DNA of 64,000 nucleotides from a virus, in the IMG/VR virus record IMGVR_UViG_3300016665_000824, positions 1 to 64,000 of that record; one strand, given 5' to 3'. The translations under genes and the position numbers were made by a program. A model generated the notes under the pieces. It did no database searches and was not told where the DNA came from. It saw nothing but the letters and a program-made list of their open reading frames with translations. Shown piece by piece: positions 1 to 64,000 of the stretch; positions within the stretch are counted from its first letter, which is position 1, and each line of letters starts with the position of its first letter.

Positions 1-252
1 TGCTTTTTTTATTGCCTTGTTTTTTTGTTTTTTTGTCCAAAAAGGTCAACTTTTTGAGGCTAGGATCACTTAGATCTTTCCTTATGGATCAAAAATTCAT
101 TGCCTGTGACTTCACCCGATCGCAGGCAAAATAAATGTACCTATAGATAATCAGGAGGTGATTTTATTCACGACATAGGGTGGCTTAAGCAGTATGCACC
201 CGAACTGCTTAAGCTTTATCAGGAAGTAGCGCAAGATCAATCTCCAGAATAC

Positions 253-462
253 TTGTATGACAGAGATATTCTGATCCCGCCTTCAATCGATACGGGTTGG
301 AAAGTGCTGACAAGCGATCGCCAGTTCAAGCTGTTTACTGGCACACTTGAAGCTTGCCAAAATTATGTGAGTTCGCTAGATCGATCTCAACCTTTAATCT
401 TGAGGGATGGTAGCGGCGATCGCCATATCGTCCCGTTCAAAATCATCATCACCCAAAGCTAA
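253..462 (+). CDS. hypothetical small protein
   Basis: 69-codon ORF with TTG start; frame is open back to 151 and an AGGAGG lies at about 153-158, so true start uncertain. Confidence 0.4.
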   Translation: MYDRDILIPPSIDTGWKVLTSDRQFKLFTGTLEACQNYVSSLDRSQPLILRDGSGDRHIVPFKIIITQS

Positions 463-552
463 CCCGTGAGTCCCGTGCGATCTACGGGTTGGCTTTTGTT
501 TGTCGCTGTTGCCGAGGCGTAGATGATCGGGTTTTTACTGGAGGCTGTTGCC

Positions 553-723
553 ATGACTATTAAAGAACTACATGAAAAGCTAAGATCCATCCAAAAGGAT
601 CTTTGGCAAAGTGAAGATCCAGAAGCTCCTTATTATGTGGAGCCTAAAAAAGCAGATCCCTCTTTGGCAGATCGTTTGTGCGATCAAGCCAACGAACGGT
701 ATTACGACTGTTTTACTGGTTAG
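553..723 (+). CDS. hypothetical small protein
   Basis: ORF; ATG at 553 preceded by GGAGG about 9 nt upstream (longer version from 523 possible). Confidence 0.5.
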   Translation: MTIKELHEKLRSIQKDLWQSEDPEAPYYVEPKKADPSLADRLCDQANERYYDCFTG

Positions 724-866
724 ACTTCAAACAATATCTACCAAACCCCTCAAGCTAGCTCTGGCTATAGCTTCTGGGGTTTCTTTAGATATTGCTATTT
801 ATTAGACTTTGGGTTTTACCCCATGTACCATAAGGGGCGTTACTCGCGATAAGAGATGGAGTTTTT

Positions 867-1169
867 GTGTTAGTTAAAAAAGAATATGCAAACGGCTCAA
901 CCGCGGTGTGGGTACAAGGGGTTGAGAAACCTCTCCGTATTGGCAAATCGATTCGCCAGCATTTCGGGGAAAACAGATCACTTGAGGATCTGCCAGATGG
1001 ATGGGAGTCGGATTTCCCTATCGACTACCAAATCACGAAATACGACTCGGATCTCCCTTGCTACTGTCATGAAGTCGAGATCGATCTTGACGGCTTAAAA
1101 GTGTCTGGCTTTATTGTAGGAGACCACGGCATAAGGACGGGAGCACACCCTATTCTAAAACTAGCCTAA
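867..1169 (+). CDS. hypothetical protein
   Basis: 100-codon ORF, GTG start with purine-rich SD-like sequence upstream. Confidence 0.5.
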   Translation: MLVKKEYANGSTAVWVQGVEKPLRIGKSIRQHFGENRSLEDLPDGWESDFPIDYQITKYDSDLPCYCHEVEIDLDGLKVSGFIVGDHGIRTGAHPILKLA

Positions 1170-1171
1170 CT

Positions 1172-1216
1172 TTTGTGGCAATATTGACGCAATCTTGCTA
1201 TAATATTGCCACAAAA
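1172..1216. promoter_or_regulatory. perfect 15-bp inverted repeat (TTTTGTGGCAATATT / AATATTGCCACAAAA) with 16-nt spacer containing a TATAAT hexamer; operator-like or terminator hairpin
   Basis: read directly in the intergenic gap between ORFs ending 1169 and starting 1233; arms contain the TTTGTGG/CCACAAA motif seen at other control regions. Confidence 0.5.
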
Positions 1217-1232
1217 CTAAGTTTCGAGCCTC

Positions 1233-12848: not shown

Positions 12849-12849
12849 T

Positions 12850-13017: not shown

Positions 13018-13043
13018 TGGCGATCGCCTTGCCTTGTAAACCA

Positions 13044-14122: not shown

Positions 14123-14254
14123 ATGCGATCGCCTAAAACATTCGACGAATTCAAAGATCTCGTATACAACATGCGACCCCGCGATCGCTACGTCTTTGAA
14201 GTAATAGACCCCAGCGAGGACTGGGGCACTTATCTTATTACAGAGGAGGCTTAG
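14123..14254 (+). CDS. hypothetical small protein, paralogue family B (short copy, 43 aa)
   Basis: N-terminus MRSPKTFDEFKDLVY matches 14847-15134; its 3' end supplies GAGGAGG for the next gene. Confidence 0.5.
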   Translation: MRSPKTFDEFKDLVYNMRPRDRYVFEVIDPSEDWGTYLITEEA

Positions 14255-14846: not shown

Positions 14847-15134
14847 ATGCGATCGCCAAAAACATTTGAAGATTTCAAGACTCTCATCTACGGAATGTCT
14901 CACCGTGAGCGTTTCGTATTTAAGGTTCTCAATCCTAGTGACGAAGAGGGTGTTGAGATTGAGATCTACACCACTGTTAGAAGAGATGCAGGGCGTGAGC
15001 CTCAAACCAATCTTTATTACCAGTGGAGAGATTCCCTCGGAGAATACCGAGAGGGCATGAACAAGGGCAACAAACGCCTCTCTCTTGTGACTGACAGCTA
15101 CCTGCAAACAATTTATTCTTGGTTAAAGAAATGA
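14847..15134 (+). CDS. hypothetical protein, paralogue family B (long copy)
   Basis: N-terminus MRSPKTFEDFKTLIY; codons 2-4 are encoded by a HIP1 site. Confidence 0.6.
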   Translation: MRSPKTFEDFKTLIYGMSHRERFVFKVLNPSDEEGVEIEIYTTVRRDAGREPQTNLYYQWRDSLGEYREGMNKGNKRLSLVTDSYLQTIYSWLKK

Positions 15135-17071: not shown

Positions 17072-17105
17072 GGCGATCGCTAACAATAAAACTTAGGAGG
17101 ATCTT

Positions 17106-20462: not shown

Positions 20463-20547
20463 CGGCGATCGCCTATATTCCAAATGCGCTACAGATAACA
20501 TCCGCATACTCAAGTGGAATCTGTGTCGCTTGCGGGATAAGGATGAT

Positions 20548-21371: not shown

Positions 21372-21416
21372 CTAAGCGATCGCCACAATACTCATAATCA
21401 AAACAACGAGAAAAGA

Positions 21417-21608: not shown

Positions 21609-21619
21609 ATAGGCGATCG

Positions 21620-21640
21620 CCCTGCAAGATTTTTGCAGGG
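21620..21640 (+). terminator. 8-bp stem hairpin followed by T-rich tract
   Basis: CCCTGCAA gattt TTGCAGGG then ttgtct, just after stop at 21608. Confidence 0.45.
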
Positions 21641-40300: not shown

Positions 40301-43300
40301 TCGTCTGCACGGAGAATCCCTGCATCTTGAAGGGCGTTAGCCGTTTCAAGCAACTCGCCCAACTTCGCCTTAAATAGCGCAGGATCTCCCGCAGACTTGT
40401 TTAAAGCGTCAAGGGCTGCATTATATTTTGAAGTTGCCTGCTCGATCGCATTACCAATACGAGGAAGATCAATAGCCTGAATTTGCAGGTTTACCGACTT
40501 GTAGGATTCTTGAAGTTTTCTAAGGGCTTCAAGTTCTCGATCTCTTTCTGCGTCTAAACCTTCTACAGCTTGAACCTGATTAATGATTGCCTCGATATTG
40601 TTGTTTCTTTCGGCGATCTCCTTCTTCTTATTCTCGATCTGAATATCAAAACGCGCAGCACCATCTTTGTCGCTTAGCGCTTCCGCCTTGGACTTTTCCT
40701 GCTCTAATTTAATTAAATCCTCTTGGAGTTTCTTCTGAGCAGACAGTCCTATTCCTAGATCAACCCGCCGAGAAGCTGACTGATTTAAGACGTTTTTATT
40801 ATCTTGCAATCTTATTTGGACGGCTTTCTCTTCAAGATTTCCTGCGCGATCGCCTAGACCTAACTTGTCGGAAGCGCCAAACGTTACCGTTCTTAGCCCC
40901 TCTCTTGCCGCGTCACCTGTAAGAGCAAAACCTTCTGTAACGCGAGTACCAATATTGTCTCTCTCTTTTTTAACCTTCTCCCTCAACGCGTCTTCGGAGT
41001 TGGTTGGTTTGCTTTGTAATCCCCTCAACTCTTTGAGTTTTGCGAGCTGTTGATCATACAGCTTTAAAGTGGGGTCATCTTGGAGGATGCTCTTGTCTTG
41101 GATTGAGGCAACATATTTTTCGCGTTCTGAGGTTAGGTTTGCTAGCTCAGAAGCGGCATCCTTTCCTTGCGATTTGTTTAGGATCGCAACCCTTGCGTCA
41201 CTATCTTTGAGCGCATCGTTGAGTTTGTCTACATTGGCTGTAGCTGCTTTTGTTTCCTGATCGACGTAGCCAACCAAGGTTGTTATTGCGGCGAAAGCTG
41301 CGCTTAACAATAATGTAGGACCAATTTCTGCGGCGAGGGCGGCGAAGGATTTGCTGATACCTTTGACATTCTCGGAAATAAACGAGGTAGCGCCTACAGC
41401 ACCCTTTTTGAGGTTTGAATAAAGTCCACCGACACTAACGTTCGCGTTTTGAGTGAAATCAGCAAAGCTAGACTTAGCTCGCGAGCCAAAATCTTTGACA
41501 CCAGAAAGAGCATCTTGGAAACCTGTCTTTAACCCAGCACCTAAATTTTTGAGGCTTAAATCGGGGAGAGAAATAGACTTGACTTGATTGACAAACTTAT
41601 CTATAGCGATACGAGAATTAGCCAAAGAAGCGGGAATATTTAGCTCTCTAAAGAACTTATCGAGTCCCAGTCTCGCGTTTGCAAGAGAGGTAGGGACGTT
41701 GATCTGGGAAAATGCTTTTTCAACCCCGTTGCGGAGGTTTACCAGCGAGGCAGGAATGTTGATATTTGCAAAGGCGTTCCGAATGCTAGCTTTAGTATTC
41801 TCAATTTGCGCGGGGAGATTTGCAAAGATACCAGTTTTTTGACTCGAATCCTGACTGAACCTTCCCTTAATGTCAGATATAAAACTACCAATAGAGTCGC
41901 CCAAGGACTTCAAAGAAGTTTTTGTCTTTGTGGCGATCGCTCCAATATCTTCTGCGAACTGTTTTGTGAACGGGACGGGAATTGGATTGGCAATAATCTG
42001 ACTTCGGAGCGACTTGATTCTGTCGGTAGTCTCCTGATAACTTTTAAGAGCCGCCGCACGAGCTTCGGGGGTTAACGACAGATCTGTAGAGTCTTTTTGG
42101 CTCACGATCGCCTGCTGTTTTAGTCCAGAGACCTCTCGTTTAGCGGCGACAACCTGAGTAGGATTTAGAGTCGTTGACTGAACTGGCTTGCCCCCAAGTA
42201 TTTCTCGAACACTATCGTTTAGCTTCTTGATGCGCCCAAAGGTTTCGCCAATACTGGCTCCAGCACCGCTAATTCCCGTGTTAATTGTCTTAAATACATT
42301 GGAGATTGTGCCACCAAACAGCTTGGTAACAGCGATCGCGATTAGCAATCCGCCAACTACTTTTTGAAAAGGATTGGAGTTCTCGCCAAAAGTAAAGAAC
42401 GGCAATATCGTGTCTGCAACCACCTTAATTACTGGTGCTAATACCGACCCTACCGTATCCGCAAACTTACGAATAGCTGCGGTTACATCCTGAATGATTT
42501 TTTGTAGACCTTTGTTCTTCAGGATTAACTGATCGAAGAAGACAAAACCAACAAATGTTCCAGCACCCAACAAGGCTGTTGATACGGCAAAAGACCTTGC
42601 CGCAGCTCCTGCCGCTTTTAATGAATTAGAGAAGATGCTGTTTACTTTCTCGGTATTTGTAGCGACATCGGCAAACTTGCCCAAGCTCTTGGCTGCGTCC
42701 GCAATCAACGGGCTAAACGAGCCAAATAGTTGGGACTTACCAACAATGCCTGAGAAAGCTGTTAAGGCGATCGGCGCTGCCTTCGTAAATCCTTGCAGTG
42801 CGGTTCCTAGCGCAGGAAATGCTTGAGTAAGTCCAATCAGTTTTACCCCAAAGCCACCTAGTGTTGGCAAAGCGGCAGTTATAACTCCCGCGAATGGCGA
42901 GAACGCACCGAGAACTTTGCCCAACTCTTTTTGGACTAAGCCAGCAGCACCAGGGATCTTGTTTAGATTCTCCGCCAACAACAGGAATCCAGCAGACCCT
43001 CGACCGACAACCGAACTTAAATTAGCAAAAGTGTTGACAACCCCGTTAGTACGCTTGTCAAGCAGGAAGAGAACTTCTCCCAAACCTGGTACAAGATTAA
43101 ACATCAACGAGAAGCCTTTGTTTAATGCCCCGATCGCGCCCGAAAGAACTTTTGCGCCGACGGAGATGCCGATCCAAATCCCTCCAAGAGGACCTACAAC
43201 ACCTGCAATTTGTTCAAACACATTAATAGCTGGCTGAACAACAGCAAGAGTAAGGCTCATCGCATCGGAAAAAGCCTTTACTGCGCCAGCGAGAGACTTG

Positions 43301-45780
43301 AATAGGTATTCTGGAACCTGCCCAAAGATCTGGAAGAATGGCCCCGCGAGACTTTTTAGGGTCGCAATCACGTTCTTGAATACGTCAAACAGTATTCCTG
43401 CGAGACTCCCTACTTGAGCAGCGATCGCGTCTTTATTCTTTGAGAAATACTGGTAAAACCCGTCAAGTTCCGCTACTAAAGGTGCGAGGAATTTCTCCCC
43501 AGCGAGTCTGCCGATCTCATCAACTAGCTCTTGAATATTGCTAACAATCCCACCCACGGACTGAGCAGCTAGCTTGTTTCCAGACTTAAATGCTTCTAAT
43601 CGACCTAAAAGCTCTTTGACGAAGGTTCCTTGAGACTTCCACTTAGCCACCATCTCATTGTTGAGGTTAAGCGATTTGGCAAGAGCTGAGTTTTGGTCAA
43701 TAGTTCCCGAAGTTATACTAACAACCTCTTGACGGGCTTGATATAAAGGTATGCCAAGCGTTCCGAGTGCGGCGGCGAACGAGGTTGTAATATTAGCAGC
43801 GTCATTCAAGGACGCGCCAATGTTGCTTGCCTGCCCAGCAACGATCTGAAAAACCCCGACAAGATCTTTACTGGTTACGCCGACCAGCTCTAACGAGTCT
43901 TTACGAATTTTATCGATCGCCCCTTCAACCGCAGGGCCAACCGCCTTGATCGCTTGAGTTGGATCTGATACGCGATCGCCATTAACTACGATTCTATTGG
44001 TTGCCGCTAAGCTCGCCTGAGTAGAGAGTAGTTGCTCTTGGAGCCTGATGTTTTGCCCAATCAACAGATCGAAAGGGCCGTTTTGTACAAATCCTTGGAG
44101 TGCCTGCAATCCCAATCCCAAGAAAGCAAGTCTCTGAGATACTTCAAAGATCGCGTTGGTTGCCTTGCCAGCACCTTCGCTAATTAGATTGAATACTTCT
44201 AGTGGTTCCGTCGCCCCCGCCACTGGAGCAACCACTGCGGCGGCAATATCTACAGGTTCTTGCAGCTTCGGGGCTATCTCTTGAGTCTTTTGAAACCCCT
44301 TAACGATAACATCATCAACACTATCGATGACAGTACCGACTTCGGCAAGGATTGTTGATCTCAGTCCATCAACAAAATTCTTACCTGCGATCGCGCCAGT
44401 ATCTTTTAAAAGCGAACTAAATGTTCCGCCAAAAAACTCGTCAATCTTGGTTGCAAGTTTTTGCAGTGAGCCATCCCCGCTTCCGATAGAATCAATCGCC
44501 GCGCCCAACCCTCCGTCAATAGCATCGACAGCTTTTAGGGCTAAATTCCTGAGAGGCGCAAGGATGCTAGTATCTTCTACGCTAAACAAGCTATTGAGAG
44601 CCTGTCCAACGCCTCCCTTTTGAGTCTCTATTAAAGGGCGGAGGATGGCAAAAGCGGATCTTAAATCCTCTGGAATTGCTTTTTCTAGTCCATTAAATAA
44701 CTGTCCAGACAACGCATTTCCAAAATCTTGCAACTCATTAGAGGCAACAATCGACCCCAAATTTGCCACCCCGATCTTGTTGGCAATCAGTTTTGCTAGT
44801 GGTGGTAGTGGCAACTTATCTACAAGCTGAGGGATTCGCCCCGCTAGGCGGTTGATCAGCTCAGATACAGAGCCGCCTAACTGTTCGTCAAGAATTTTAA
44901 ATTGATCGGTCGCCTCAGATCTGCTGCCGACGATTGCCCTGCCGACCGATCCTCCTAAAGCGCTAGATAAGCGCCCTACAACTCTTTGTCCGTCCTCAAC
45001 GTTTGGCGCGATTGCGTTAACGGCAAAAGCTTTAGCAGCACCCGATACCGACCCACCAGCCAACTGCTTCGACACTTCCGACAGCAATCCAGTTTTTGCC
45101 GCAGTCCGAAATGAGTTGGCGACAATTGAGGTTAAATCCGCCCCGAAAGCTTGGTTAACAATACCTTTTAAAGCGTCGGGGAGTCCTCCCCCAACAACGC
45201 CCGAAATGAGTGAGTCGGCGATCGCGTTATCTAGCGTTCCAGTAAAAGCCTCAACTCCCACTCCAAGCTTGCGCTGAATTTCTTGATTTAGCTTTGAAGC
45301 CCTAACATTTGCTTCTAACGCTTTACCGAAACTGTTTGCAGAATCGCTAAGTATCTGCGTAATTCTCTTGCCGTTATCCGAAAATATTGCAGACTGAGCT
45401 TGCTCTGCCGACTGCTTAGATAAGAATCCTCCTCCGACATCTTTTCCTGCAGAGGTAATCCCCTTGATTACCTTTGAGAGCGGAGCTAGTTTTGAAACTG
45501 CACTGTCGGCGACATTCGAGATCTGTTCTAAAAATATTTTGCCCGACTGCGTATCTAGTACATCTCGAACCGACTGAATTGCGTCTCTCAGCCCTCCAAA
45601 CGTGCCAATCGCGGTTGCCCCTACCGTGCTGATCGTTCCGCCAAGGGCTTGTACAGATCCCTTTGTTACGTCCGCAACAACACCAACACTTTTTAGACCA
45701 GCAGCTATCTCCGAAACTTGTTTGCTTGCTTGATCTTTCGCCTGTATTAAGATCTCAACAATATTGGTTTGCGGAGCCAT
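37345..45780 (-). CDS. tape measure protein (2811 aa)
   Basis: giant ORF with Gly/Ala-rich hydrophobic N-terminal half and ~1000-aa coiled-coil (Q/E/K/A-rich) half, upstream of baseplate/fibre genes. Confidence 0.75.
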   Translation of the reverse strand: MAPQTNIVEILIQAKDQASKQVSEIAAGLKSVGVVADVTKGSVQALGGTISTVGATAIGTFGGLRDAIQSVRDVLDTQSGKIFLEQISNVADSAVSKLAPLSKVIKGITSAGKDVGGGFLSKQSAEQAQSAIFSDNGKRITQILSDSANSFGKALEANVRASKLNQEIQRKLGVGVEAFTGTLDNAIADSLISGVVGGGLPDALKGIVNQAFGADLTSIVANSFRTAAKTGLLSEVSKQLAGGSVSGAAKAFAVNAIAPNVEDGQRVVGRLSSALGGSVGRAIVGSRSEATDQFKILDEQLGGSVSELINRLAGRIPQLVDKLPLPPLAKLIANKIGVANLGSIVASNELQDFGNALSGQLFNGLEKAIPEDLRSAFAILRPLIETQKGGVGQALNSLFSVEDTSILAPLRNLALKAVDAIDGGLGAAIDSIGSGDGSLQKLATKIDEFFGGTFSSLLKDTGAIAGKNFVDGLRSTILAEVGTVIDSVDDVIVKGFQKTQEIAPKLQEPVDIAAAVVAPVAGATEPLEVFNLISEGAGKATNAIFEVSQRLAFLGLGLQALQGFVQNGPFDLLIGQNIRLQEQLLSTQASLAATNRIVVNGDRVSDPTQAIKAVGPAVEGAIDKIRKDSLELVGVTSKDLVGVFQIVAGQASNIGASLNDAANITTSFAAALGTLGIPLYQARQEVVSITSGTIDQNSALAKSLNLNNEMVAKWKSQGTFVKELLGRLEAFKSGNKLAAQSVGGIVSNIQELVDEIGRLAGEKFLAPLVAELDGFYQYFSKNKDAIAAQVGSLAGILFDVFKNVIATLKSLAGPFFQIFGQVPEYLFKSLAGAVKAFSDAMSLTLAVVQPAINVFEQIAGVVGPLGGIWIGISVGAKVLSGAIGALNKGFSLMFNLVPGLGEVLFLLDKRTNGVVNTFANLSSVVGRGSAGFLLLAENLNKIPGAAGLVQKELGKVLGAFSPFAGVITAALPTLGGFGVKLIGLTQAFPALGTALQGFTKAAPIALTAFSGIVGKSQLFGSFSPLIADAAKSLGKFADVATNTEKVNSIFSNSLKAAGAAARSFAVSTALLGAGTFVGFVFFDQLILKNKGLQKIIQDVTAAIRKFADTVGSVLAPVIKVVADTILPFFTFGENSNPFQKVVGGLLIAIAVTKLFGGTISNVFKTINTGISGAGASIGETFGRIKKLNDSVREILGGKPVQSTTLNPTQVVAAKREVSGLKQQAIVSQKDSTDLSLTPEARAAALKSYQETTDRIKSLRSQIIANPIPVPFTKQFAEDIGAIATKTKTSLKSLGDSIGSFISDIKGRFSQDSSQKTGIFANLPAQIENTKASIRNAFANINIPASLVNLRNGVEKAFSQINVPTSLANARLGLDKFFRELNIPASLANSRIAIDKFVNQVKSISLPDLSLKNLGAGLKTGFQDALSGVKDFGSRAKSSFADFTQNANVSVGGLYSNLKKGAVGATSFISENVKGISKSFAALAAEIGPTLLLSAAFAAITTLVGYVDQETKAATANVDKLNDALKDSDARVAILNKSQGKDAASELANLTSEREKYVASIQDKSILQDDPTLKLYDQQLAKLKELRGLQSKPTNSEDALREKVKKERDNIGTRVTEGFALTGDAAREGLRTVTFGASDKLGLGDRAGNLEEKAVQIRLQDNKNVLNQSASRRVDLGIGLSAQKKLQEDLIKLEQEKSKAEALSDKDGAARFDIQIENKKKEIAERNNNIEAIINQVQAVEGLDAERDRELEALRKLQESYKSVNLQIQAIDLPRIGNAIEQATSKYNAALDALNKSAGDPALFKAKLGELLETANALQDAGILRADEVAGAFQKVATNVSADRDLQIKAQEAITAAYKKEADRRIAIYDAQLSQIQALLATGRISESESIALSGQLEEKKIQAQSEADQKALRARQQILETNANEQKQQIKRDRELAEAQLAAATGDPSKIRQVREAQAPVLQGKIDDTSQQIKDAEARKKALQESISTGVAGDNAAEDVKKVTDELAVLQSRLNSLQSQKGTLDSTLKLSEDTQGQLEGITKQIEDGEKALSSLKAGNAETLQRFNTVKDAPFFNSSEYTAQIKAEQDAIAKKESELRTLQTKRDQLSSIAKPDAERQNLAKNSIADANKKELDLVKATAAQKARLEEDADNKRKDAEAKIAKARSERFVKGLDAQIKETLAAEKVGETQRLAQIAQLRKSGIKLESEIKLQETAERKRSITLELQLEQQKQKAIADLEKKGVGVSKETKNANLIKVAELSKQLAEAELAAIEGLVSAVRDRLVLESQKYAVTIEQQNLKLERQKLLFTALEKGLENQSRLSESANKLAQSTVALRESEFAALNKIYDRQQAAIRAAGGQGNFADLELEEKKLILAEKLAVLKLNSLKQQQKFEAESLEREIQKRDLLLERKKVENEIAIAKKKVDIASQDAAIKAAELEVKLRPQSEEAKLKLAQAKLGQEKNFLELGGLQQEKGFIADEAKVNEIVNKNDRQALANKQQGETNTAIGDVIGATRDPALQERLQREQLARLTQNTGTAALTTTDVSNAVAAASQPVNVRGASFKNPTSALLGQVEQGGVFTAAPEPKPDNAPFATSFEELAKKYPDKGMAGSFEELNKKYPAQANSFEELNAKYGGKPTEEAKPEQAIASSFDKLTQQIDEGFSKVLVAPDLKVKDLTAGLEAEFNRVSKQISENPVTLKIDDKAFEEAQKKLDKPIALLDEGQLQRAEALAQAFGSLGGKDLVPQQQGNPTGAALGTSGNITVNAPIAINTQSNISSAAGVGNDVQKAVNDTLNNVLRRVAGVTSGVR
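37840..37995 (-). repeat. three tandem ~45-nt repeats encoding SFEEL-x-KKYP inside the tape measure gene
   Basis: GCTCCTCAAA recurs three times on + strand; protein repeats SFEELAKKYP / SFEELNKKYP / SFEELNAKYG. Confidence 0.6.
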
Positions 45781-54902: not shown

Positions 54903-54939
54903 AACAGGCGATCGCTTGATGAATTAGCGATCGCCTGTT
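54903..54939 (-). terminator. 13-bp perfect stem hairpin built from two HIP1 sites (intra-operon attenuator candidate)
   Basis: AACAGGCGATCGC ttgatgaatta GCGATCGCCTGTT. Confidence 0.45.
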
Positions 54940-56467: not shown

Positions 56468-56478
56468 AATTCAATAGA

Positions 56479-56518
56479 TATAAAAATATCGAGCGCAGGT
56501 ATTCCCACGCTCGATATT
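56479..56518 (-). terminator. intrinsic terminator/attenuator immediately downstream of putative major capsid gene
   Basis: 11-bp perfect stem (AATATCGAGCG / CGCTCGATATT), 12-nt loop, then TTTTTATA on the transcribed strand. Confidence 0.65.
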
Positions 56519-56528
56519 GGCGATCGCC

Positions 56529-57440
56529 TTACAATCCGTGCAACCAGAGTACGGAGTAGGGACGCTTGATAATCAAGCCGCCGTACTTCATACGGGCGGT
56601 GCGCTGCATCCCACGAGGAAGCTCAATCCACTTCTTGAAGGAGAAAGGCTCGGTAATGCGGAACTTGATTTTGTTCGGATCGCGCTTGTAGTAACAAGCA
56701 ACGTTAGAACCGCCATCACCAACACCTTCGAGAGGGAGTAAGGGGAAGTAATCCTTAATGTAAGTTGCCTTACTCAAGTAGTAATCAAGAACAGAATCAC
56801 TGTTGAAGTCACTGAGACGACGGAAGCTGATTTCATCGTGAGTTGCCTGAGCAAACAAGATCGTGTCAGGGGTCTCAATATTGCGGGTCAAACGACGCAT
56901 GGCGTTGCCAGTGTTGTTCAATACCGCAAGAAGCTGAGCTACCGTAGCATTGCTGTCAAAAGCGTATGCAGAGTAGGACTTCAAAGTATCAGGATGGTTG
57001 AAGAAACCGCGCAATTGACCGTCACCCAAGAACACCATCTTGTCGAGGTATTGTTGACCTGCTTCAAGCACGATCTGGACTTTTTCCGCCTCAATGCCAG
57101 TACCAAACTTTTGAGAAAGTTCGATTTCTTTGTCATTAAGGGTATAAGCACCAATATGCTCAGAAACTCTTTGGCGGAATTCTCTCGACACGATCTCGAC
57201 GTTAGGAACGTGAGTGGTGTAGTCGCGAGCAGCTTCCCACCGACCGATACCAGTTACCTTGCGATAGCCAGTTTCTTCGAGTTCAGGTTTGTTCCAATCT
57301 TCGCGAGGAAGGAGAGTGCCGTTAGCCCAGTAAAGCTGTTCGTACTCTTCTTTTTCGAGAGACTGTTCTAGTTCGACGAGCTGCTCTTTGAAGTAGCCCA
57401 CCGACCAATCATCATTCTTAATTTCAGTAGCTGTGGTCAT
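56529..57440 (-). CDS. putative major capsid protein (303 aa)
   Basis: start refined to ATG 57440 (GGAGGAG upstream); track ORF N-terminal 96 aa is readthrough overlapping the upstream gene; abundance terminator follows. Confidence 0.6.
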   Translation of the reverse strand: MTTATEIKNDDWSVGYFKEQLVELEQSLEKEEYEQLYWANGTLLPREDWNKPELEETGYRKVTGIGRWEAARDYTTHVPNVEIVSREFRQRVSEHIGAYTLNDKEIELSQKFGTGIEAEKVQIVLEAGQQYLDKMVFLGDGQLRGFFNHPDTLKSYSAYAFDSNATVAQLLAVLNNTGNAMRRLTRNIETPDTILFAQATHDEISFRRLSDFNSDSVLDYYLSKATYIKDYFPLLPLEGVGDGGSNVACYYKRDPNKIKFRITEPFSFKKWIELPRGMQRTARMKYGGLIIKRPYSVLWLHGL

Positions 57441-57450: not shown

Positions 57451-58323
57451 CTAGAAGTTCGCGTAAACTTTGACAACCCTGTTGTTGTTGATGTCGATAA
57501 CAACATCGGAGCGGAAACTGGCGCGGGTCGAAGCGTCGATCGCGCTGTTCGCATTGGTCTTTTGGGCATAACCCTTAGAGCCAGCAGCAACAGAGATATA
57601 AACGGTGTCGGACTCGGCGATACTGGTTTCCAAAGTAGGAACCCAAATACCAGAGAGATCACCCAATCGTCGTTGAACATCAACCGCCAACTGGTTAGCT
57701 TCGTATCCAGCAGTCGCCGCTTCGCCAACCACGTCTTTTTGAACGGAGGTGTTTAGGCGGGTGATGCCGCAGATAGCGGAGATTGCGTCACCACTGTTAG
57801 GAAGGCGAATGCTGCCACCATTGAGAGTTCCAGTCACACGAGGAGTTGTGCCTGCGACCTTGGTGACAAACAATCCAAAGCCAATGCGAGATGGGGCTGC
57901 GGCTGCGGTAGTTGGAGTGGTAGGCACGGTTAAAGGTGCTGCACCGCCACCACTGACGCTCACAAACATCGGGGTATTATCCTTGCGATGAGTGAAGACC
58001 AAAGTTGAGGTGTTATTTACCACCGAGGCAATCTGGCTGGCGCGAAGGTTAGCGCGGAACGCTGCGTACAAGCCTGCGGCAAGGTCGGCGCGAACAGTTG
58101 AAGCGGTGGTAAAAGAGAAGGTGATTGGGTTATCGGAGGTATCAGCATCATAGATAGTGATGCTGTACACAGTGGCTGTAACGGGAGTTGCAGGAGTTGT
58201 AACCGTCCAAACTTCCTTAACGTAGCCACTGTCATTGTGATAGGCTTCAACAGAGCCAACACCCATGCCCTCAACCATTCCAGCGAGAGCCTGTGTGTAA
58301 TACTGGCGATAATTCTTTTGCAT
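57451..58323 (-). CDS. putative head protein (290 aa; Thr/Ala/Val-rich, decoration or second capsid component)
   Basis: ORF between protease/scaffold-like and capsid-like genes. Confidence 0.6.
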   Translation of the reverse strand: MQKNYRQYYTQALAGMVEGMGVGSVEAYHNDSGYVKEVWTVTTPATPVTATVYSITIYDADTSDNPITFSFTTASTVRADLAAGLYAAFRANLRASQIASVVNNTSTLVFTHRKDNTPMFVSVSGGGAAPLTVPTTPTTAAAAPSRIGFGLFVTKVAGTTPRVTGTLNGGSIRLPNSGDAISAICGITRLNTSVQKDVVGEAATAGYEANQLAVDVQRRLGDLSGIWVPTLETSIAESDTVYISVAAGSKGYAQKTNANSAIDASTRASFRSDVVIDINNNRVVKVYANF

Positions 58324-58336
58324 TGTTTAGTTGCTC

Positions 58337-59827
58337 CTATTTTCTAGTGGAACGAGCTAAGGGTTTGGAGTAGTTCTTGCCGTAGCGCTCGTTATTGCGT
58401 TCTGCGGCATCCTTCTTCTCCTCGGAATCTTTACGCTCAGTGCGACCAACCTTTACGGCGGTCTCTAGGCGATCTGCGTAGCTAGGCGCAGGAACAAGAG
58501 TTGCGTACTCAGCCGCGCTATCGAAACGGGCTTCGATGTAGCTATCGTTGCGATCGCTTAAATCAACTTCAGGATGAATAGCCTTCAGTGCAGCGCGACG
58601 AATCTCGGTGGAGTCCATCGTGGTTTCGATACCTGCATCCTCGATGTTGATACCCTTAGAGGTAAGAAGGTCGTGAGCCTTGCCAATTGCATCGAGGCGA
58701 TCGGCAGTCTGGCGATTGATTTCTTCAGCGAGGAATTCACGGACTTCATCGGAGTCAAGAACGACTGCCAACTCAGAAGAGTCCATCTTCTTGCCCTTCT
58801 TCATCTTTTTCTTGATGAAGTCAGGCATCTTGCTTTCACCCTCGGATTCCTCATCGTCAGGCTCGCCTTCGCCGTCTTCCTTGTCACCACAAGAAGCATC
58901 CTGACGGATAGTTTCGAGTTGAGTTAGGGTTTCGGTTAGCTCATCTTCAAGAGCGTCAGCACGACCCTTGGTGCGATTAACTTCGGAAGTAAGGTCGGCG
59001 ATCGCGTCAGCCTTCTCTTTGAGTTCAGCCTCAAGAGAATCCACGCGAGACTTATATTTAGATAGTTCTTCGAGTTTTTGCGACAGGGGGTAGAGCGCGA
59101 TGTCCTCCACCTGAAACTCGCCAGCGCCATCCACGCGCAATGTTTTTGTTTTCAAATCGGACATAGCGGAGCTACCCTCATTTTTAATTGTTGGAATAAC
59201 GACAACGCTGTTCGGAGCAGAGGCTTTAACTTGGATCGAGTCAAAGCGAACTAGCTCAACAACCTCATCCCCATCGGCATCGGCACTATCGAGGTGCATC
59301 CTCACAGTGCTCCCCCCGCGTGGGTTGTCAGTTGCGGCGCAATGGTCTGGTCGAATCTTGGTTTGAACACGGTCAAAATCGCCCCGATAGGTGATCTGGT
59401 CGATCGCGTCGAACCATTCGCCATTCGGGGCTTCTACGATTTCGCATTCATATCCAAGAGAAAGACCGTTCTTTTTGCCTGCCTTTACGGACTGGGCAAA
59501 ATCGGGGTTAGAGATTCGGGCAATATTCTGTACAACCCCCTCGTTATCGTTGTACTCACCCGCCCTTGTTAATTCACCAACAGCGCTATCTCGTTTTCCC
59601 CGCAATAGCGAAGATGGATGCTCGACAGTCATCGGCAATCCTTTTAGGGACTCAAGGAAATCGCGATCGCGGTTTGCCGAAGCAGGTCGCAATTCACGAA
59701 CTCGCTTTCCGTCACCTCGAAAGTATGTCAATATGCCGTCTCGACAAACCGTGCTGTACGCATACAGCCCGTCCGCACGTTCTTCAGTGCGGGTCGCGAA
59801 ACTTACGTCATCAAAACGAAATGCCAT
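58337..59827 (-). CDS. putative prohead protease / scaffolding fusion protein (496 aa)
   Basis: globular N-terminal ~190 aa, then acidic coiled-coil region (EELSKYKSRVDSLEAELKEK..., DKEDGEGEPDDEESEGE); first gene of the operon. Confidence 0.55.
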   Translation of the reverse strand: MAFRFDDVSFATRTEERADGLYAYSTVCRDGILTYFRGDGKRVRELRPASANRDRDFLESLKGLPMTVEHPSSLLRGKRDSAVGELTRAGEYNDNEGVVQNIARISNPDFAQSVKAGKKNGLSLGYECEIVEAPNGEWFDAIDQITYRGDFDRVQTKIRPDHCAATDNPRGGSTVRMHLDSADADGDEVVELVRFDSIQVKASAPNSVVVIPTIKNEGSSAMSDLKTKTLRVDGAGEFQVEDIALYPLSQKLEELSKYKSRVDSLEAELKEKADAIADLTSEVNRTKGRADALEDELTETLTQLETIRQDASCGDKEDGEGEPDDEESEGESKMPDFIKKKMKKGKKMDSSELAVVLDSDEVREFLAEEINRQTADRLDAIGKAHDLLTSKGINIEDAGIETTMDSTEIRRAALKAIHPEVDLSDRNDSYIEARFDSAAEYATLVPAPSYADRLETAVKVGRTERKDSEEKKDAAERNNERYGKNYSKPLARSTRK

Positions 59828-62786: not shown

Positions 62787-62823
62787 TCGGTTAAGCGTGG
62801 GTAGCCACGACGCTTGTTCAAGG

Positions 62824-62862
62824 CAATAAAAAAGGAGTCCAATTGAGACTCCTTTTTTATTG
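62824..62862. terminator. bidirectional terminator (16-bp perfect stem with A6/T6 tracts) between convergent genes
   Basis: CAATAAAAAAGGAGTC caattga GACTCCTTTTTTATTG. Confidence 0.7.
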
Positions 62863-62869
62863 CTGTAGT

Positions 62870-63595
62870 TTAATCAAAGAATTTTCTAACCGCCGCTTCT
62901 ACATCCTTGTTTGGCATCGGGTAGCACCAAATCGGCATCATCCGACCATTGCAAATCCTTTCTTCTTGTTTGCCAAGAGCCTCGCAAGTAGCTTTGACAA
63001 ATTTTCCTAATGTGGTGCGGTTTTTAGCTGTTACGGGCAAACTCAAAGATTCAGCAATTTCTACGGCTCCCATCCACTTTGTCTCCGAGGCTGGAGCGAT
63101 CGCCTTGATAACAGCCATTGCGTCGTTGATCGCAACATCTACAAGCATTTGACATAAGCGAGGGTCGGAATCAGCAAGCATATCCTTGATCTCAAAGACT
63201 GACTTCGCTGTTTCGAGTGCTATTACACGAGAGGGCAATGCGGGAACAGGAGTGGGGGTAGTAGGCACTGATTGTAACAATGCCTTCGCCTTAGAGAAGG
63301 CTTCAACCAGATCGAGCTTGCTCTGAACAACGGCTACCGTGTTTCGGCTCAGGGTCATTAAAGCGGTCGCTTGGTCTTCGTTGAGTAGCGCAAATTTAGG
63401 AGGGTTCCCTGTCGCCTTTTCGGGGACTCCGATTTTAAATCGGATACCCGCGAACCTTGCTTCAATCATGTCTTGGTACTTCTTGATGTTCCGCATAAAG
63501 CTCTCGTGATCAATCCCAAGTCGCTCGGCAATCAGTCGAGAGTCAACAAGCAATTCGCCATCTTCATTGATGATTGGTACAATACTTTCGGACAT
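62870..63595 (-). CDS. phage regulatory protein, Rha/ORF6N-like (241 aa)
   Basis: N-terminus ...LLVDSRLIAERLGIDHESFMRNIKKYQDMIE... matches the Rha-type DNA-binding pattern. Confidence 0.6.
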   Translation of the reverse strand: MSESIVPIINEDGELLVDSRLIAERLGIDHESFMRNIKKYQDMIEARFAGIRFKIGVPEKATGNPPKFALLNEDQATALMTLSRNTVAVVQSKLDLVEAFSKAKALLQSVPTTPTPVPALPSRVIALETAKSVFEIKDMLADSDPRLCQMLVDVAINDAMAVIKAIAPASETKWMGAVEIAESLSLPVTAKNRTTLGKFVKATCEALGKQEERICNGRMMPIWCYPMPNKDVEAAVRKFFD

Positions 63596-63678
63596 ATAAT
63601 CTACCTTTTCTAGGTTATGTGTTACGCGATCGCACCTTCAAAAACTTGCGATCGCTATCCTTAATATTATACCTTGAT

Positions 63679-63696
63679 CTTGTGGCGATTTTGTGG
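63679..63696. promoter_or_regulatory. TTGTGG-N4-TTTGTGG motif (reverse-complement form of the CCACAAA pair) upstream of the final partial gene
   Basis: CTTGTGGCGATTTTGTGG in the gap between the Rha-like gene and ORF starting 63727. Confidence 0.45.
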
Positions 63697-63726
63697 GAGT
63701 ATTAATAAACGTCACAGGAATTTTTT

Positions 63727-64000
63727 ATGTCTGAATACTATTTATACGGCGATCGCGAAGGTAATGCTCTTGATCGGTTAAAAGCTTCTCGCCCTCAGCT
63801 AATCAATAAGCTTTACTACTGGGCTGGCAAACGGCTTGACTATCGGGTTAAGCATTCGCTTATGGCGGAGCAGGATGTTTCCAAGCAGGTTGATCGATAT
63901 CTAGAGGCGATTGCATTTGCTTCGTCGGAAAAGGATCTGCTAAACACGCTCAACAGTTGGAACCTCCTGTCACCTCAAGAGAAGGCGATTATGGCAAAGC
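63727..64000 (+). CDS. hypothetical protein, 5' partial (runs off window end)
   Basis: ATG 63727, open frame to the window edge; absent from track because no stop codon. Confidence 0.4.
   Translation, partial: MSEYYLYGDREGNALDRLKASRPQLINKLYYWAGKRLDYRVKHSLMAEQDVSKQVDRYLEAIAFASSEKDLLNTLNSWNLLSPQEKAIMAK

What the first reader, a model, noticed from the sequence alone, without database searches (positions are those of the whole stretch)
1..64000. Massive HIP1 (GCGATCGC) over-representation, often in the extended form GGCGATCGCC directly after stop codons
By eye the octamer occurs about once per 300-500 bp (on the order of 100-200 copies) versus about one expected by chance. This is the hallmark of HIP1-rich cyanobacteria and implies the element has been shaped by the same mutational or repair bias as its host. 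In the early region the site sits immediately 3' of many stop codons (e.g. near 12815, 13020, 17045, 20090, 20465, 21375, 21612), so it may also mark gene-cassette boundaries. It is used inside codons too (MRSP starts, CDRG motif).
Basis: partly seen in the sequence, partly recalled or inferred. Interest (0 to 1): 0.6.

Follow-up and report, generated by a model that had tools for sequence, protein, structure and literature searches.

The report
Cyanobacterial HIP1 palindrome saturating a phage genome
This 64-kb stretch of an uncultured cyanobacterial virus carries 135 copies of the octamer GCGATCGC, the palindrome that litters cyanobacterial chromosomes. This is real and strongly non-random, but cultured cyanophages and many other viral contigs show the same, and the "after stop codons" pattern is only a modest side-effect.

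Summary
The count is confirmed: 135 GCGATCGC against 1.2 expected from dinucleotide shuffles (48-fold over a second-order Markov model). It is the commonest octamer in the window.

The window is 64 kb of a ~134-kb, circularly assembling genome of an uncultured tailed cyanophage. Its nearest cultured relatives are Aphanizomenon phage CL131 and Planktothrix phage PaV-LD.

The sites behave like chromosomal HIP1:
- They occur in all three codon phases.
- One-mismatch variants concentrate at positions 1 and 8.
- Retention in relatives is 2-6 times the local background.
- Positions turn over almost completely in a distant relative.

The pressure is strong. Ala-Ile-Ala is the most over-represented tripeptide (57 vs 9.8), and synonymous positions inside HIP1 are 93% conserved against 64% elsewhere.

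The extended form GGCGATCGCC accounts for only 15 of 135 sites. Stop-codon adjacency exists (9 of 27 spacer sites lie within 8 nt of a stop, against 3-5 expected; CL131 repeats this). It mostly reflects 3-fold higher density in spacers and exclusion from ribosome-binding regions. A cassette-boundary role is not supported (p=0.06).

HIP1 enrichment also occurs in CL131, PaV-LD, N1, 2AV2 and many unrelated viral contigs, while A-4L, Pf-WMP3 and Ma-LMM01 have none. Verdict: a new member of a known kind, of moderate-to-low interest.

The parts
1..64000 (.). Field of 135 dispersed GCGATCGC (HIP1) sites. 104 lie inside ORFs (1.8 per kb) and 31 in or straddling spacers (5.9 per kb). Density is highest at 12.7-22.7 kb (3.6 per kb) and 59.8-64 kb (3.1 per kb), and about 1.6 per kb in the structural genes.
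   Evidence: Spacing is not distinguishable from random (CV 0.91). No conserved flank exists beyond a weak G(-1)/C(+1) preference.
13020..13027 (+). HIP1 2 nt after the TAG stop of ORF 12850-13017, followed by an A/C-rich leader and the next ATG.
17073..17080 (+). HIP1 1 nt after the TAA stop of ORF 16865-17071, 25 nt before the next start codon.
20465..20472 (+). HIP1 2 nt after the TAA stop of ORF 20133-20462.
21376..21383 (+). HIP1 4 nt after the TAA stop of ORF 21138-21371.
21613..21640 (+). HIP1 (21613-21620) 4 nt after the TGA stop of ORF 21417-21608. A separate 9-bp hairpin CCCTGCAAG/TTGCAGGG (21619-21640) starts within its last two bases and is followed by TTGTCT.
   Evidence: fold dG -20.8 kcal/mol, z -4.3.
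14123..14132 (+). ATG overlapping HIP1 (AT[GCGATCGC], read as M-R-S-P), beginning 3 nt after the stop of ORF 13824-14120. First copy of a duplicated two-gene cassette.
   Evidence: paralogy.
14847..14856 (+). ATG overlapping HIP1 (M-R-S-P), beginning 3 nt after the stop of ORF 14557-14844. Second copy of the duplicated cassette.
   Evidence: paralogy (30% identity; 57% identity).
29132..29141 (-). TAG stop of ORF 29139-31127 sharing its G with HIP1 (TA[GCGATCGC]).
34077..34086 (-). TAG stop of ORF 34084-34935 sharing its G with HIP1.
36411..36454 (-). Hairpin built from two HIP1 copies (36419-36426 and 36439-36446). A perfect 16-bp stem, AUCAAAAAGGCGAUCGC/GCGAUCGCCUUUUUGAU, with a 12-nt loop, in the spacer between two minus-strand genes. 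Terminator-like.
   Evidence: Fold dG -28.4 kcal/mol, z -6.7, 0 of 200 shuffles as good. Neither HIP1 is among the window sites that differ in L004/L006, whose alignment to the window ends at 36577.
54903..54939 (-). Second hairpin built from two HIP1 copies (54908-54915 and 54927-54934). 14-bp stem, 9-11-nt loop, followed by UUGCUUG.
   Evidence: Fold z -4.9. Both HIP1 copies are conserved in L001/L003.
56485..56531 (-). Capsid-gene stop (TAA 56529-56531), 1 nt, HIP1 (56520-56527), then a 15-bp intrinsic-terminator hairpin (56518-56485) and a T-run. In eight relatives the same stop+HIP1+terminator forms the left border of a variable gene slot.
56529..57440 (-). Major capsid protein (303 aa, PF09950/DUF2184 type). 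Shows that the HIP1 field lies in phage structural genes, not in captured host DNA.
57451..59827 (-). Head-module genes: a 290-aa protein (57451-58323) and a 496-aa DUF2213/Pa193_gp24 protein (58337-59827). The order is the same as in CL131; PaV-LD has two comparably sized ORFs ahead of its capsid gene.
37345..45780 (-). 2811-aa ORF with a weak tape-measure hit. It carries 13 HIP1 sites (1.5 per kb).

Best explanation
WHAT IT IS. The window is part of a ~134-kb genome of an uncultured tailed phage of a HIP1-rich cyanobacterium. Its 135 GCGATCGC copies are the ordinary cyanobacterial HIP1 phenomenon acting on a phage replicon.

SHOWN:
- The sites are single dispersed octamers, not parts of a longer mobile repeat.
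- They arise and decay in place by point substitution.
- They occupy all three codon phases and spacers, and are about 3-fold denser where coding constraint is absent.
- The pressure is strong enough to have changed protein sequences (excess of Ala-Ile-Ala and x-Asp-Arg).
- Once present, they are held at the DNA level (synonymous positions are protected).
- Over long divergence, positions turn over while density persists.

INFERRED (my committed mechanism). Phage DNA replicated in the host is methylated at the CGATCG and GATC cores by the host's orphan methyltransferases. It is then subject to the same methylation-linked, directionally biased mismatch correction that Elhai (2015) proposed creates and maintains HIP1 in the chromosome. 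The sites are tolerated because this host lineage has no restriction enzyme cutting CGATCG or GATC, whereas the phage has purged 24 other 6-bp palindromes.

STOP ADJACENCY. It is mainly a by-product. In compact spacers, the only unconstrained bases lie just after the stop, because the ~25 nt before the next start codon are occupied by the leader and ribosome-binding site. A few sites have secondarily become stems of terminator-like hairpins.
For: IDENTITY:
- Capsid and protease families; portal, Mu-F and tail-S beside the window.
- 100% match to the circularly assembling ENA contig k141_20893.
- Relatives exist only as viral or metagenomic contigs plus one Pseudanabaena-assembly contig.
- CL131 and PaV-LD are the nearest cultured phages.

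HIP1 HALLMARKS:
- O/E of 48 with a second-order Markov model, within the 16-317-fold range of Xu 2018 (PMC5861425).
- 2109 per Mb, within Elhai's 500-2500 per Mb.
- Codon phases 54/36/14, and 104 observed against 10.7 +/- 3 after a synonymous-codon shuffle.
- One-off variants at positions 1/8, 2/7, 3/6 and 4/5 number 47, 20, 10 and 4, the bias Elhai reported.

STRENGTH OF THE PRESSURE: AIA 57 vs 9.8 (z=15), with 54 of 57 encoded as GCGATCGC; CDR, GDR and RDR are also top outliers.

MAINTENANCE:
- Orthologous retention is 24/29 vs 11.2 expected, 14/19 vs 2.4, 23/31 vs 8.9 and 6/9 vs 1.5.
- Synonymous third positions are identical in 53/57 vs 218/339 cases, p=4e-6.

IN-SITU SUBSTITUTION AND TURNOVER:
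- Single-base differences are all transitions, including GTGATCGC and GCGATCAC.
- Gains and losses occur on different branches.
- Only 1 of 16 sites is shared with the 50%-identity relative L010, which is still HIP1-rich at 1.3 per kb.

NOT CAPTURED HOST DNA: sites are spread through structural genes, and the flanks are equally rich (204 sites in 92 kb).

RESTRICTION-SITE PURGING: 24 of 64 hexamer palindromes are absent, while CGATCG occurs 187 times.

SPACER AND STOP PATTERN; replicated in CL131 using its deposited annotation.
Against: - No CGATCG- or GATC-specific methyltransferase, and no mismatch-repair gene, was found in the 92 kb I could see. The host is unidentified, so the methylation step is wholly inferred.
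- Excess conservation of synonymous positions is what purifying selection predicts. It fits biased repair only if that repair also restores mutated sites.
- A-4L, Pf-WMP3 and Ma-LMM01 (hosts taken as HIP1-rich from general knowledge) contain no HIP1 and no CGATCG. A host-imposed bias is therefore at least overridable.
- The split does not follow possession of a phage DNA polymerase: N1 has one and is HIP1-rich.
- After excluding the ribosome-binding zone, a residual stop-proximal excess remains (p=0.027 here, p=0.016 in CL131). The by-product account may be incomplete.
- Elhai's repair system is itself hypothetical.
Confidence: 0.5

Rival explanations
1. Adaptive self-tag mimicry. HIP1 sites are kept in the phage by selection because methylated HIP1 on incoming DNA improves its survival or establishment in the cell. 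It could act as a Chi-like or 'self'-like signal that tempers nucleases or promotes recombination and repair. Cyanophages then follow one of two anti-defence strategies: mimic the host tag, or purge its core.
For: - Kamoku & Nielsen 2024 (bioRxiv 10.1101/2024.09.10.611283) report that methylated, non-homologous HIP1 sites raise the transformation efficiency of replicating episomes up to 9-fold. They suggest a Chi-like role.
- Synonymous positions inside HIP1 are protected (53/57 vs 218/339, p=4e-6), and orthologous retention is 2-6 times the local background.
- Protein sequences have been bent toward HIP1 (AIA 57 vs 9.8).
- The distribution among phages is bimodal: enriched in this clade, CL131, PaV-LD, N1 and 2AV2, and zero HIP1 and zero CGATCG in A-4L, Pf-WMP3 and Ma-LMM01.
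- CL131 is virulent in culture (PMC6293099) yet is HIP1-rich, so lysogenic residence is not required.
Against: - There is no experimental link between HIP1 and phage infection.
- Positions turn over almost completely at depth (1 of 16 shared with L010), so no individual site is indispensable.
- Density tracks relaxed constraint (3-fold higher in spacers), as expected of a mutational pressure.
- The one-off variant spectrum is the one Elhai attributes to a repair ratchet.
- The bimodality could simply reflect which hosts carry CGATCG- or GATC-cutting enzymes.
Confidence: 0.3
2. Genome punctuation. HIP1 is a functional signal placed at the 3' ends of genes. It could be a terminator or RNA-processing element, or a recombination site marking exchangeable gene cassettes.
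For: - 9 of 27 spacer sites lie within 8 nt of a stop, against 3.1-5.0 expected. CL131 shows 5 of 48 genes against 1.1-1.8 expected.
- Two hairpins are built from HIP1 pairs (z -6.7 and -4.9), and two sites show stop, HIP1, then a terminator.
- The variable gene slot after the capsid gene is bracketed by HIP1 in eight relatives.
- Recombination at HIP1 between Synechococcus plasmids is cited in PMC9239245.
Against: - 104 of 135 sites are inside genes, in all three phases.
- Only 12 of 92 gene ends have a nearby site.
- Homology breakpoints are not significantly near HIP1 (10 of 58 vs 5.7, p=0.06, uncorrected for both features favouring gene ends).
- The window's empty slot is not a simple HIP1-by-HIP1 deletion product.
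- Terminator-like sites are not more frequent than in shuffles.
- A lone 8-10-bp palindrome forms only a 3-bp stem.
- No integrase or recombinase was found.
Confidence: 0.08
3. The HIP1 load is inherited host DNA. The window would be a chromosomal or plasmid segment of a cyanobacterium (an integrated prophage with host flanks, or a mis-assembly), so the motif says nothing about phage evolution.
For: - A ParA-type partition ATPase and a small RHH protein lie just outside the window, and the contig assembles as a circle. Plasmid-like maintenance is therefore possible.
- One relative sits in a Pseudanabaena genome assembly.
Against: - HIP1 is spread evenly through capsid, protease, tail and tape-measure-like genes.
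- No host gene, tRNA or rRNA was recognised in the window, and precomputed Pfam hits on the flanks show only phage or partition-type families.
- Six related viral contigs and many metagenomic contigs carry the same genes and the same HIP1 density.
- Cultured, purified phages CL131, PaV-LD, N1 and 2AV2 are also enriched.
Confidence: 0.02

Closest known systems
HIP1 (Highly Iterated Palindrome 1, GCGATCGC) of cyanobacterial chromosomes (Robinson 1995; Elhai 2015, PMC4390886; Xu 2018, PMC5861425)
   Same: - The same exact octamer, and the commonest octamer in the sequence.
- Density (2.1 per kb) and enrichment (48-fold, second-order Markov) within the published chromosomal ranges.
- Present in all reading phases and in non-coding DNA.
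- One-mismatch variants concentrated at positions 1 and 8.
- Orthologous sites conserved above control.
- Sites gained and lost by substitution.
   Different: - The replicon is a phage, not a chromosome. Neither of the two main HIP1 papers read here mentions phages, and Xu 2018 excluded plasmids.
- No cognate methyltransferase is visible in the 92 kb examined.
- No quasi-periodic spacing was detected in 64 kb.
Aphanizomenon phage vB_AphaS-CL131 and Planktothrix phage PaV-LD (cultured freshwater cyanophages)
   Same: - The head module is shared: CL131 has the same DUF2213 protein, ~290-aa protein and PF09950-type capsid gene order, and PaV-LD has two comparably sized ORFs ahead of its capsid gene. 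Capsid identity is 33%.
- Large genomes (95-113 kb) with many small unknown ORFs.
- HIP1 is the commonest octamer: 70 and 27 copies per 50 kb against about 0.3 expected.
- CL131 also shows spacer enrichment, stop adjacency and an AIA excess.
- Many hexamer palindromes are purged.
   Different: - Only distant relatives; there is no nucleotide similarity.
- Both encode DNA methyltransferases, and none is seen here.
- PaV-LD has lower density and no clear spacer bias.
- The CL131 paper does not mention HIP1.
Host-signature convergence and restriction-site avoidance in phage genomes (a general principle, stated from my own knowledge)
   Same: The phage shares its host's most extreme oligonucleotide bias, and it lacks 24 of 64 palindromic hexamers. 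Both are standard outcomes of long co-evolution with one host group.
   Different: Here one palindrome is enriched about 100-fold while others are purged. The enrichment is strong enough to distort the proteome. Ordinary k-mer convergence is far weaker.
Chi sites and DNA uptake sequences (short over-represented motifs with a role in processing incoming DNA)
   Same: A short motif, hundreds-fold over-represented and dispersed through genes. Recent preprints propose such roles for HIP1.
   Different: HIP1 is palindromic, so it has no strand or orientation bias to test. A phage does not depend on natural transformation for entry. No function was tested here.

Membership tests
Cyanobacterial HIP1 | The exact octamer GCGATCGC is hyper-abundant relative to composition (16-317-fold with a second-order Markov model in Xu 2018) and is the dominant octamer. 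| tested here: met
   135 copies; 1.24 expected from shuffles; O/E of 48 at Markov order 2; top octamer.
Cyanobacterial HIP1 | Absolute density of about 500-2500 per Mb (Elhai 2015). | tested here: met
   2109 per Mb in the window and 2211 per Mb over the 92 kb visible. Range quoted from PMC4390886.
Cyanobacterial HIP1 | Dispersed single copies, not part of a longer repeat or mobile element. | tested here: met
   Flanking positions are near background apart from G(-1) at 38% and C(+1) at 35%. Spacing is random-like. Sites differ from relatives by substitutions, not insertions.
Cyanobacterial HIP1 | Present and enriched in all three reading phases and in non-coding DNA. | tested here: met
   Phases 54/36/14 and 31 non-coding sites. 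A synonymous-codon shuffle gives 10.7 against 104 observed.
Cyanobacterial HIP1 | One-nucleotide variants are biased toward the first and last positions, so the CGATCG core is kept (Elhai 2015). | tested here: met
   Positions 1/8, 2/7, 3/6 and 4/5 give 47, 20, 10 and 4. CL131 gives 11, 3, 3 and 1.
Cyanobacterial HIP1 | Sites are conserved between related genomes above control motifs, in coding and non-coding DNA (Xu 2018). | tested here: met
   Retention is 2-6 times the local-flank control in every comparison. Synonymous positions are identical in 53/57 vs 218/339 cases, p=4e-6.
Cyanobacterial HIP1 | Co-occurrence with CGATCG- and GATC-specific orphan methyltransferases, and methylation of the sites. 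| tested here: inconclusive
   No methyltransferase domain appears in 92 of 134 kb. The host genome is unknown, and methylation cannot be read from sequence.
Cyanobacterial HIP1 | Quasi-periodic spacing along the genome (Xu 2018). | tested here: inconclusive
   The spacing CV is 0.91 against 0.99 for random placement (p=0.15), and there is no excess of short gaps. 64 kb gives little power.
Gene-cassette recombination site (integron attC-like or moron boundary) | A site at each cassette 3' end, an associated recombinase, and junctions of variable content coinciding with the site. | tested here: not met
   12 of 92 gene ends have a site. No integrase or recombinase was found. Breakpoints are 10 of 58 vs 5.7 expected, p=0.06. 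One suggestive slot exists.
Intrinsic terminator or REP-like intergenic hairpin element | A stable stem-loop (plus a T-run for terminators) located between genes. | tested here: not met
   Only two HIP1-pair hairpins, and two sites beside separate terminators. 104 of 135 sites are intragenic. A lone site folds into only a 3-bp stem.
Chi-like or DNA-uptake-sequence-like motif | Demonstrated effect on nuclease attenuation, recombination or uptake; usually a strand or orientation bias. | not testable with these tools
   The motif is palindromic, so orientation cannot be scored. Functional evidence exists only for plasmid transformation (preprint read).

The most novel reading that the evidence does not exclude
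Methylated HIP1 is a host 'self' or Chi-like tag, and a large group of cyanophages has evolved to carry it at host density. Their injected DNA is then processed like host DNA and is not degraded. Other cyanophages (A-4L, Pf-WMP3, Ma-LMM01) take the opposite route and eliminate the CGATCG or GATC core. The phage data would then be the first natural evidence that HIP1 acts after DNA entry and not as an uptake signal, because phages bypass uptake.
Probability: 0.25. Interest if true: 0.7.

Novelty: new member of a known kind. Interest (0 to 1): 0.35.

Why it matters
HIP1 has been known for thirty years, and its origin (biased repair or selection) and its function are still debated. Phage genomes are a useful natural test bed. 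They replicate only inside the host, do not enter by natural transformation, evolve fast, and come in many related variants.

This window shows that a phage can carry HIP1 at the top of the host range. The pressure distorts its proteins, sites are protected even at synonymous positions, and yet positions turn over. Other phages sampled here lack the motif entirely.

These facts constrain the models. A pure DNA-uptake-signal role does not obviously explain enrichment in a virulent phage such as CL131. A pure mutational bias does not obviously explain the phages with zero copies.

In practical terms, HIP1 density is a simple host-prediction marker for uncultured cyanophages. The finding itself is not a new kind of element.

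Tried and rejected
- OWN POLYMERASE VERSUS HOST POLYMERASE as the divider between HIP1-rich and HIP1-free cyanophages. CL131 and PaV-LD (no catalytic polymerase) against A-4L and Pf-WMP3 (T7-type polymerase) looked promising. Rejected because Nostoc phage N1 has a polymerase and is HIP1-rich.
- CASSETTE-BOUNDARY ROLE. The breakpoint test gave p=0.06, so it is not supported.
- PERIODICITY OR CLUSTERING of sites. None found.
- PHAGE-ENCODED METHYLTRANSFERASE, INTEGRASE OR POLYMERASE. None in the window by Pfam or in the flanks by precomputed Pfam. 42 kb of the genome remains unseen.
- tRNA OR attP. A tRNA-like 3' half lies near 2150-2181, but ARAGORN finds no tRNA and no integrase is present. 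Rfam gave no hits.
- CLOSE RELATIVES AMONG DEPOSITED PHAGES. No megablast match.
- PROPHAGE COPIES IN REFERENCE GENOMES. None with the capsid protein alone. A capsid alignment found only the Pseudanabaena 'Roaring Creek' contig. An alignment that included CL131 and PaV-LD was too divergent to search with.
- WALKING INTO THE UNSEEN GENOME via related viral contigs. This failed for the 363-aa flank gene. One large protein search bought a further 10 kb.
- FIRST GENE CALLER. My codon-usage caller split the capsid region and dropped early genes. I replaced it with a strand-aware longest-ORF map, then corrected that map at the capsid locus using the relatives' gene calls.
- HAIRPIN SCAN OF VIRAL CONTIGS. 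It returned mostly high-GC contigs where the motif is expected more often by chance. Only the 23 loci below 56% GC were informative.
- TERMINATOR SCAN. Counts were not above shuffles.

Full report
THE OBSERVATION

GCGATCGC occurs 135 times in the 64,000-base window. Dinucleotide-preserving shuffles give a mean of 1.24 and never more than 4. Markov models of order 0, 1, 2 and 3 expect 0.75, 1.17, 2.81 and 7.75 copies. It is the commonest octamer in the window, and the next most frequent octamers are its overlapping neighbours. The core claim is therefore confirmed.

The claim that the site is 'often' GGCGATCGCC is overstated. Only 15 of 135 sites have the full 10-mer. G precedes the site in 51 cases and C follows it in 47, which is what independent mild preferences predict.

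WHAT THE WINDOW IS

The ORF layout is that of a phage. About 65 small plus-strand ORFs fill the first 25 kb, and large minus-strand genes follow. PHROG and Pfam hits identify a major capsid protein, a DUF2213 head protein and tail proteins. Almost nothing else matches any family, including all 65 early ORFs.

Looking up two terminal genes by exact sequence located the source: ENA contig ERZ27292652:k141_20893, 134,398 nt, matching the window at 100% identity. The two anchors imply offsets that differ by 134,257, which is the contig length minus a 141-nt k-mer overlap. The assembly is therefore circular, the window spans the junction, and the genome is about 134 kb.

Just outside the window lie a portal, Mu-F and tail-S genes on one side. 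On the other side are a ParA-type ATPase, a small RHH protein and an HTH protein. In the 92 kb I could see there are 204 HIP1 sites, or 2.2 per kb. I found no methyltransferase, DNA polymerase or integrase there.

RELATIVES AND HOST

There is no nucleotide match among deposited phages. Six IMG/VR contigs and many ENA and Logan metagenomic contigs are 74-90% identical over shared genes. A more distant relative, with 50% capsid identity, is a contig of the Pseudanabaena sp. 'Roaring Creek' assembly. By capsid protein, the nearest cultured phages are Aphanizomenon phage CL131 and Planktothrix phage PaV-LD at 33% identity, with a similar head-gene order. The host is thus a HIP1-rich, probably filamentous, freshwater cyanobacterium. 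I could not identify it more closely.

HOW THE SITES BEHAVE

They match every sequence-level hallmark published for chromosomal HIP1.
- Density (2109 per Mb) lies within Elhai's 500-2500 per Mb. Enrichment at Markov order 2 (48-fold) lies within Xu's 16-317-fold.
- 104 sites are in ORFs, in all three phases: 54 as Ala-Ile-Ala, 36 as x-Asp-Arg and 14 as x-Arg-Ser-x. Shuffling synonymous codons within genes leaves only 10.7 +/- 3.0.
- One-mismatch variants number 47, 20, 10 and 4 for positions 1/8, 2/7, 3/6 and 4/5. This is the bias Elhai described.
- Flanks carry no further conserved sequence, and spacing is indistinguishable from random. These are single sites, not pieces of a mobile repeat.

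STRENGTH AND PERSISTENCE OF THE PRESSURE

Ala-Ile-Ala is the most over-represented tripeptide in the predicted proteome: 57 observed against 9.8 expected (z=15), with 54 of the 57 encoded by GCGATCGC. CDR, GDR and RDR are also among the top outliers. Amino-acid sequences have therefore been altered to make HIP1.

Against close relatives, HIP1 sites are retained far more often than neighbouring octamers. The figures are 24 of 29 against 11.2 expected from local flanks, 14 of 19 against 2.4, 23 of 31 against 8.9, and 6 of 9 against 1.5. This holds in coding and non-coding DNA.

The sharpest test uses synonymous third-codon positions within Ala-Ile-Ala-phase sites. Pooled over three non-overlapping genome segments, they are identical in 53 of 57 cases. 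The same codons (GCG, ATC) outside HIP1 are identical in 218 of 339 cases (Fisher p=4e-6). The constraint therefore acts on the DNA, not the protein.

Yet the sites are not permanent. Single-base differences between relatives are all transitions. A five-genome comparison shows 5 of 20 sites universally kept, with clade-specific gains and losses, some needing several substitutions. Only 1 of 16 window sites at aligned codons is shared with the distant relative L010, which nevertheless has 1.3 sites per kb. Density is maintained by continual creation and decay in each lineage.

THE STOP-CODON CLAIM

The cited examples are real. Sites are 3.3 times denser outside ORFs (5.9 against 1.8 per kb).

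Twelve of 92 genes have a site starting -3 to +12 nt from the stop. That compares with 3.1 under uniform placement, but 7.5 +/- 1.9 once non-coding sites are shuffled only within non-coding DNA (p=0.03). Within co-directional spacers the mean relative position is 0.34 (p=0.006). Nine of 27 sites lie within 8 nt of the stop, against 3.1 expected, or 5.0 if the 20 nt before start codons are excluded (p=0.027). No site lies within 12 nt of a start codon.

CL131, with its deposited annotation, repeats this. Its density is 4.9 against 1.15 per kb, and 5 of 48 genes have a stop-adjacent site against 1.1 or 1.8 expected (p=0.0065 and 0.016). It has the same phase order, and AIA occurs 38 times against 6.9 expected. 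PaV-LD shows the AIA excess but no spacer bias.

My reading is that the bias is genuine but small. It is mostly explained by where a compact phage genome has free bases. Two of the window's cases belong to one old duplication of a two-gene cassette, in which ATG overlaps HIP1.

OTHER ROLES CONSIDERED

Two spacers contain a pair of HIP1 copies that pair with each other into long perfect stems (z -6.7 and -4.9). At two other places a stop is followed by HIP1 and then a separate terminator hairpin. These look like opportunistic uses of a common palindrome, not its purpose, because 104 sites are intragenic.

For the cassette idea, homology breakpoints against relatives lie within 20 nt of a HIP1 in 10 of 58 cases, against 5.7 expected (p=0.06). 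This is before allowing for both features favouring gene ends.

The one striking case is the slot after the capsid gene. Eight relatives carry different inserted genes there, between a left HIP1 (stop, HIP1, terminator) and a right HIP1 located 22 nt before the next conserved gene. The window has an empty slot with a single HIP1, but it is not a simple HIP1-by-HIP1 deletion product.

HOW GENERAL IS THIS?

In the searchable literature I found no paper describing HIP1 in a phage genome. The two main HIP1 papers never mention phages, and the CL131 paper never mentions HIP1.

The phenomenon is nonetheless plainly present in public data.
- HIP1 is the commonest octamer in CL131 (70 per 50 kb), PaV-LD (27 per 50 kb) and Nodularia phage 2AV2 (10 per 20 kb). 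It is strongly enriched in Nostoc phage N1 (13 per 20 kb).
Among the first 120 stretches were 18 mutually unrelated contigs with 0.9-4.8 extra sites per kb and no protein similarity to this window; HIP1 is the commonest octamer in all but one.
- By contrast, Anabaena phage A-4L, Leptolyngbya phage Pf-WMP3 and Microcystis phage Ma-LMM01 have no HIP1 and no CGATCG in 25 kb each. A-4L has no GATC at all, against 94 expected.
- A marine Synechococcus phage, whose host group I take from general knowledge to lack HIP1, has none, as expected.

So cyanophages fall into HIP1-rich and core-purging classes. I first thought the divider was possession of a phage DNA polymerase, but N1 refutes that.

The window itself lacks 24 of the 64 palindromic hexamers, each expected 10-17 times, while holding 187 CGATCG. 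It is under strong selection against restriction sites, and HIP1's core is exempt.

MECHANISM

The following are shown: in-situ substitution, constraint-limited placement, DNA-level maintenance, turnover, and exemption from palindrome purging.

The following is inferred. The generating force is the one acting on the host chromosome. I commit to Elhai's methylation-linked biased mismatch correction acting on phage DNA that host orphan methyltransferases have methylated (confidence about 0.5).

The main rival (about 0.3) is selection for methylated HIP1 as a tag that helps incoming DNA. This is prompted by the report that methylated non-homologous HIP1 sites raise episome establishment up to 9-fold. 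My data do not separate these two. Synonymous-site protection and the bimodal distribution lean toward selection. The variant spectrum, the density gradient with constraint, and the turnover lean toward a mutational ratchet.

A punctuation role (about 0.08) and captured host DNA (about 0.02) are poorly supported.

VERDICT

The stop-codon pattern is a minor, largely secondary effect, and the cassette idea is not supported. This is a new member of a known kind: the well-known HIP1 phenomenon on a phage replicon, already visible though apparently unremarked in cultured cyanophage genomes. Its value is as a natural experiment on how HIP1 is made and kept.

Noticed in passing
window 1-64000: 24 of the 64 palindromic hexamers are completely absent, although each is expected 10-17 times from base composition. 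Examples are TTCGAA, ATGCAT, CAGCTG, CCATGG, CTCGAG, GGATCC, GGCGCC, GTCGAC, TGCGCA, GACGTC, GGTACC and TGGCCA. AGATCT is over-represented (56 vs 33). This is a very strong restriction-avoidance signature. CL131 and PaV-LD lack several of the same sites.
   Followed up: partly
L026 5940-6816 and L149 5940-6816 (source contig, just left of window position 1): A ParA/CbiA-family ATPase (210 aa) with a small RHH protein (83 aa) sits beside more than 1 kb of non-coding DNA. The contig assembles as a 134,257-bp circle. This could mean plasmid-like (phage-plasmid) maintenance, or merely a circularly permuted genome. The homologue in L010 of the window's 657-aa protein (60813-62786) carries a ParB_N domain.
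   Followed up: partly
L026 6057-6285: A 97-nt tandem repeat (2.2 copies) in the non-coding gap next to parA. Each unit contains two HIP1 sites about 30 nt apart. It is a candidate centromere or origin repeat built around HIP1.
   Followed up: no
window about 2150-2188: A tRNA-like 3' half abuts the HIP1 at 2181. It has a T-arm (CAGGG-TTCGACT-CCCTG) followed by a 7-nt acceptor strand and a discriminator base. ARAGORN calls no tRNA and no integrase is nearby. It may be a tRNA remnant or an old attachment site.
   Followed up: partly
window 13824-14254 and 14557-15134: A diverged tandem duplication of a two-gene cassette (30% and 57% protein identity). In both copies the second gene starts 3 nt after the first gene's stop, with its ATG overlapping HIP1 (MRSPKTF...).
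   Followed up: yes
L011-L018, downstream of the capsid gene (window equivalent 56468-56528): A hypervariable slot holds different inserted genes in different relatives: 109, 241, 315 and 360 aa proteins and a 421-aa protein kinase. A DnaJ-domain protein occurs further downstream in L013. The slot is bracketed by conserved HIP1-containing borders.
   Followed up: partly
window 12786-22645: Many short spacers share an A/C-rich leader before the start codon, such as aaaccaaaacaaaa, caaaacaacaagcaggag and caaaacaacgag. Often there is no clear Shine-Dalgarno sequence. This may be a shared translation or promoter feature of this gene block.
   Followed up: no
window 1-24900: About 65 consecutive small ORFs have essentially no Pfam match. 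The single weak hit is to mycobacteriophage L5 gp82. This is a large block of unknown early genes.
   Followed up: partly
L021 (Anabaena phage A-4L, 1-25000): GATC is completely absent (0 against 94 expected), as are CGATCG and HIP1. The top octamers are (AC)n-like. Pf-WMP3 and Ma-LMM01 also have zero CGATCG. This is the opposite strategy to the window's phage.
   Followed up: partly
window 60477-60503: Inside ORF 59991-60554, a HIP1 and a one-off copy (GCGATCGT) form an 11-bp hairpin that the terminator scan flags. In L001/L003 this HIP1 carries a 3-nt deletion.
   Followed up: no
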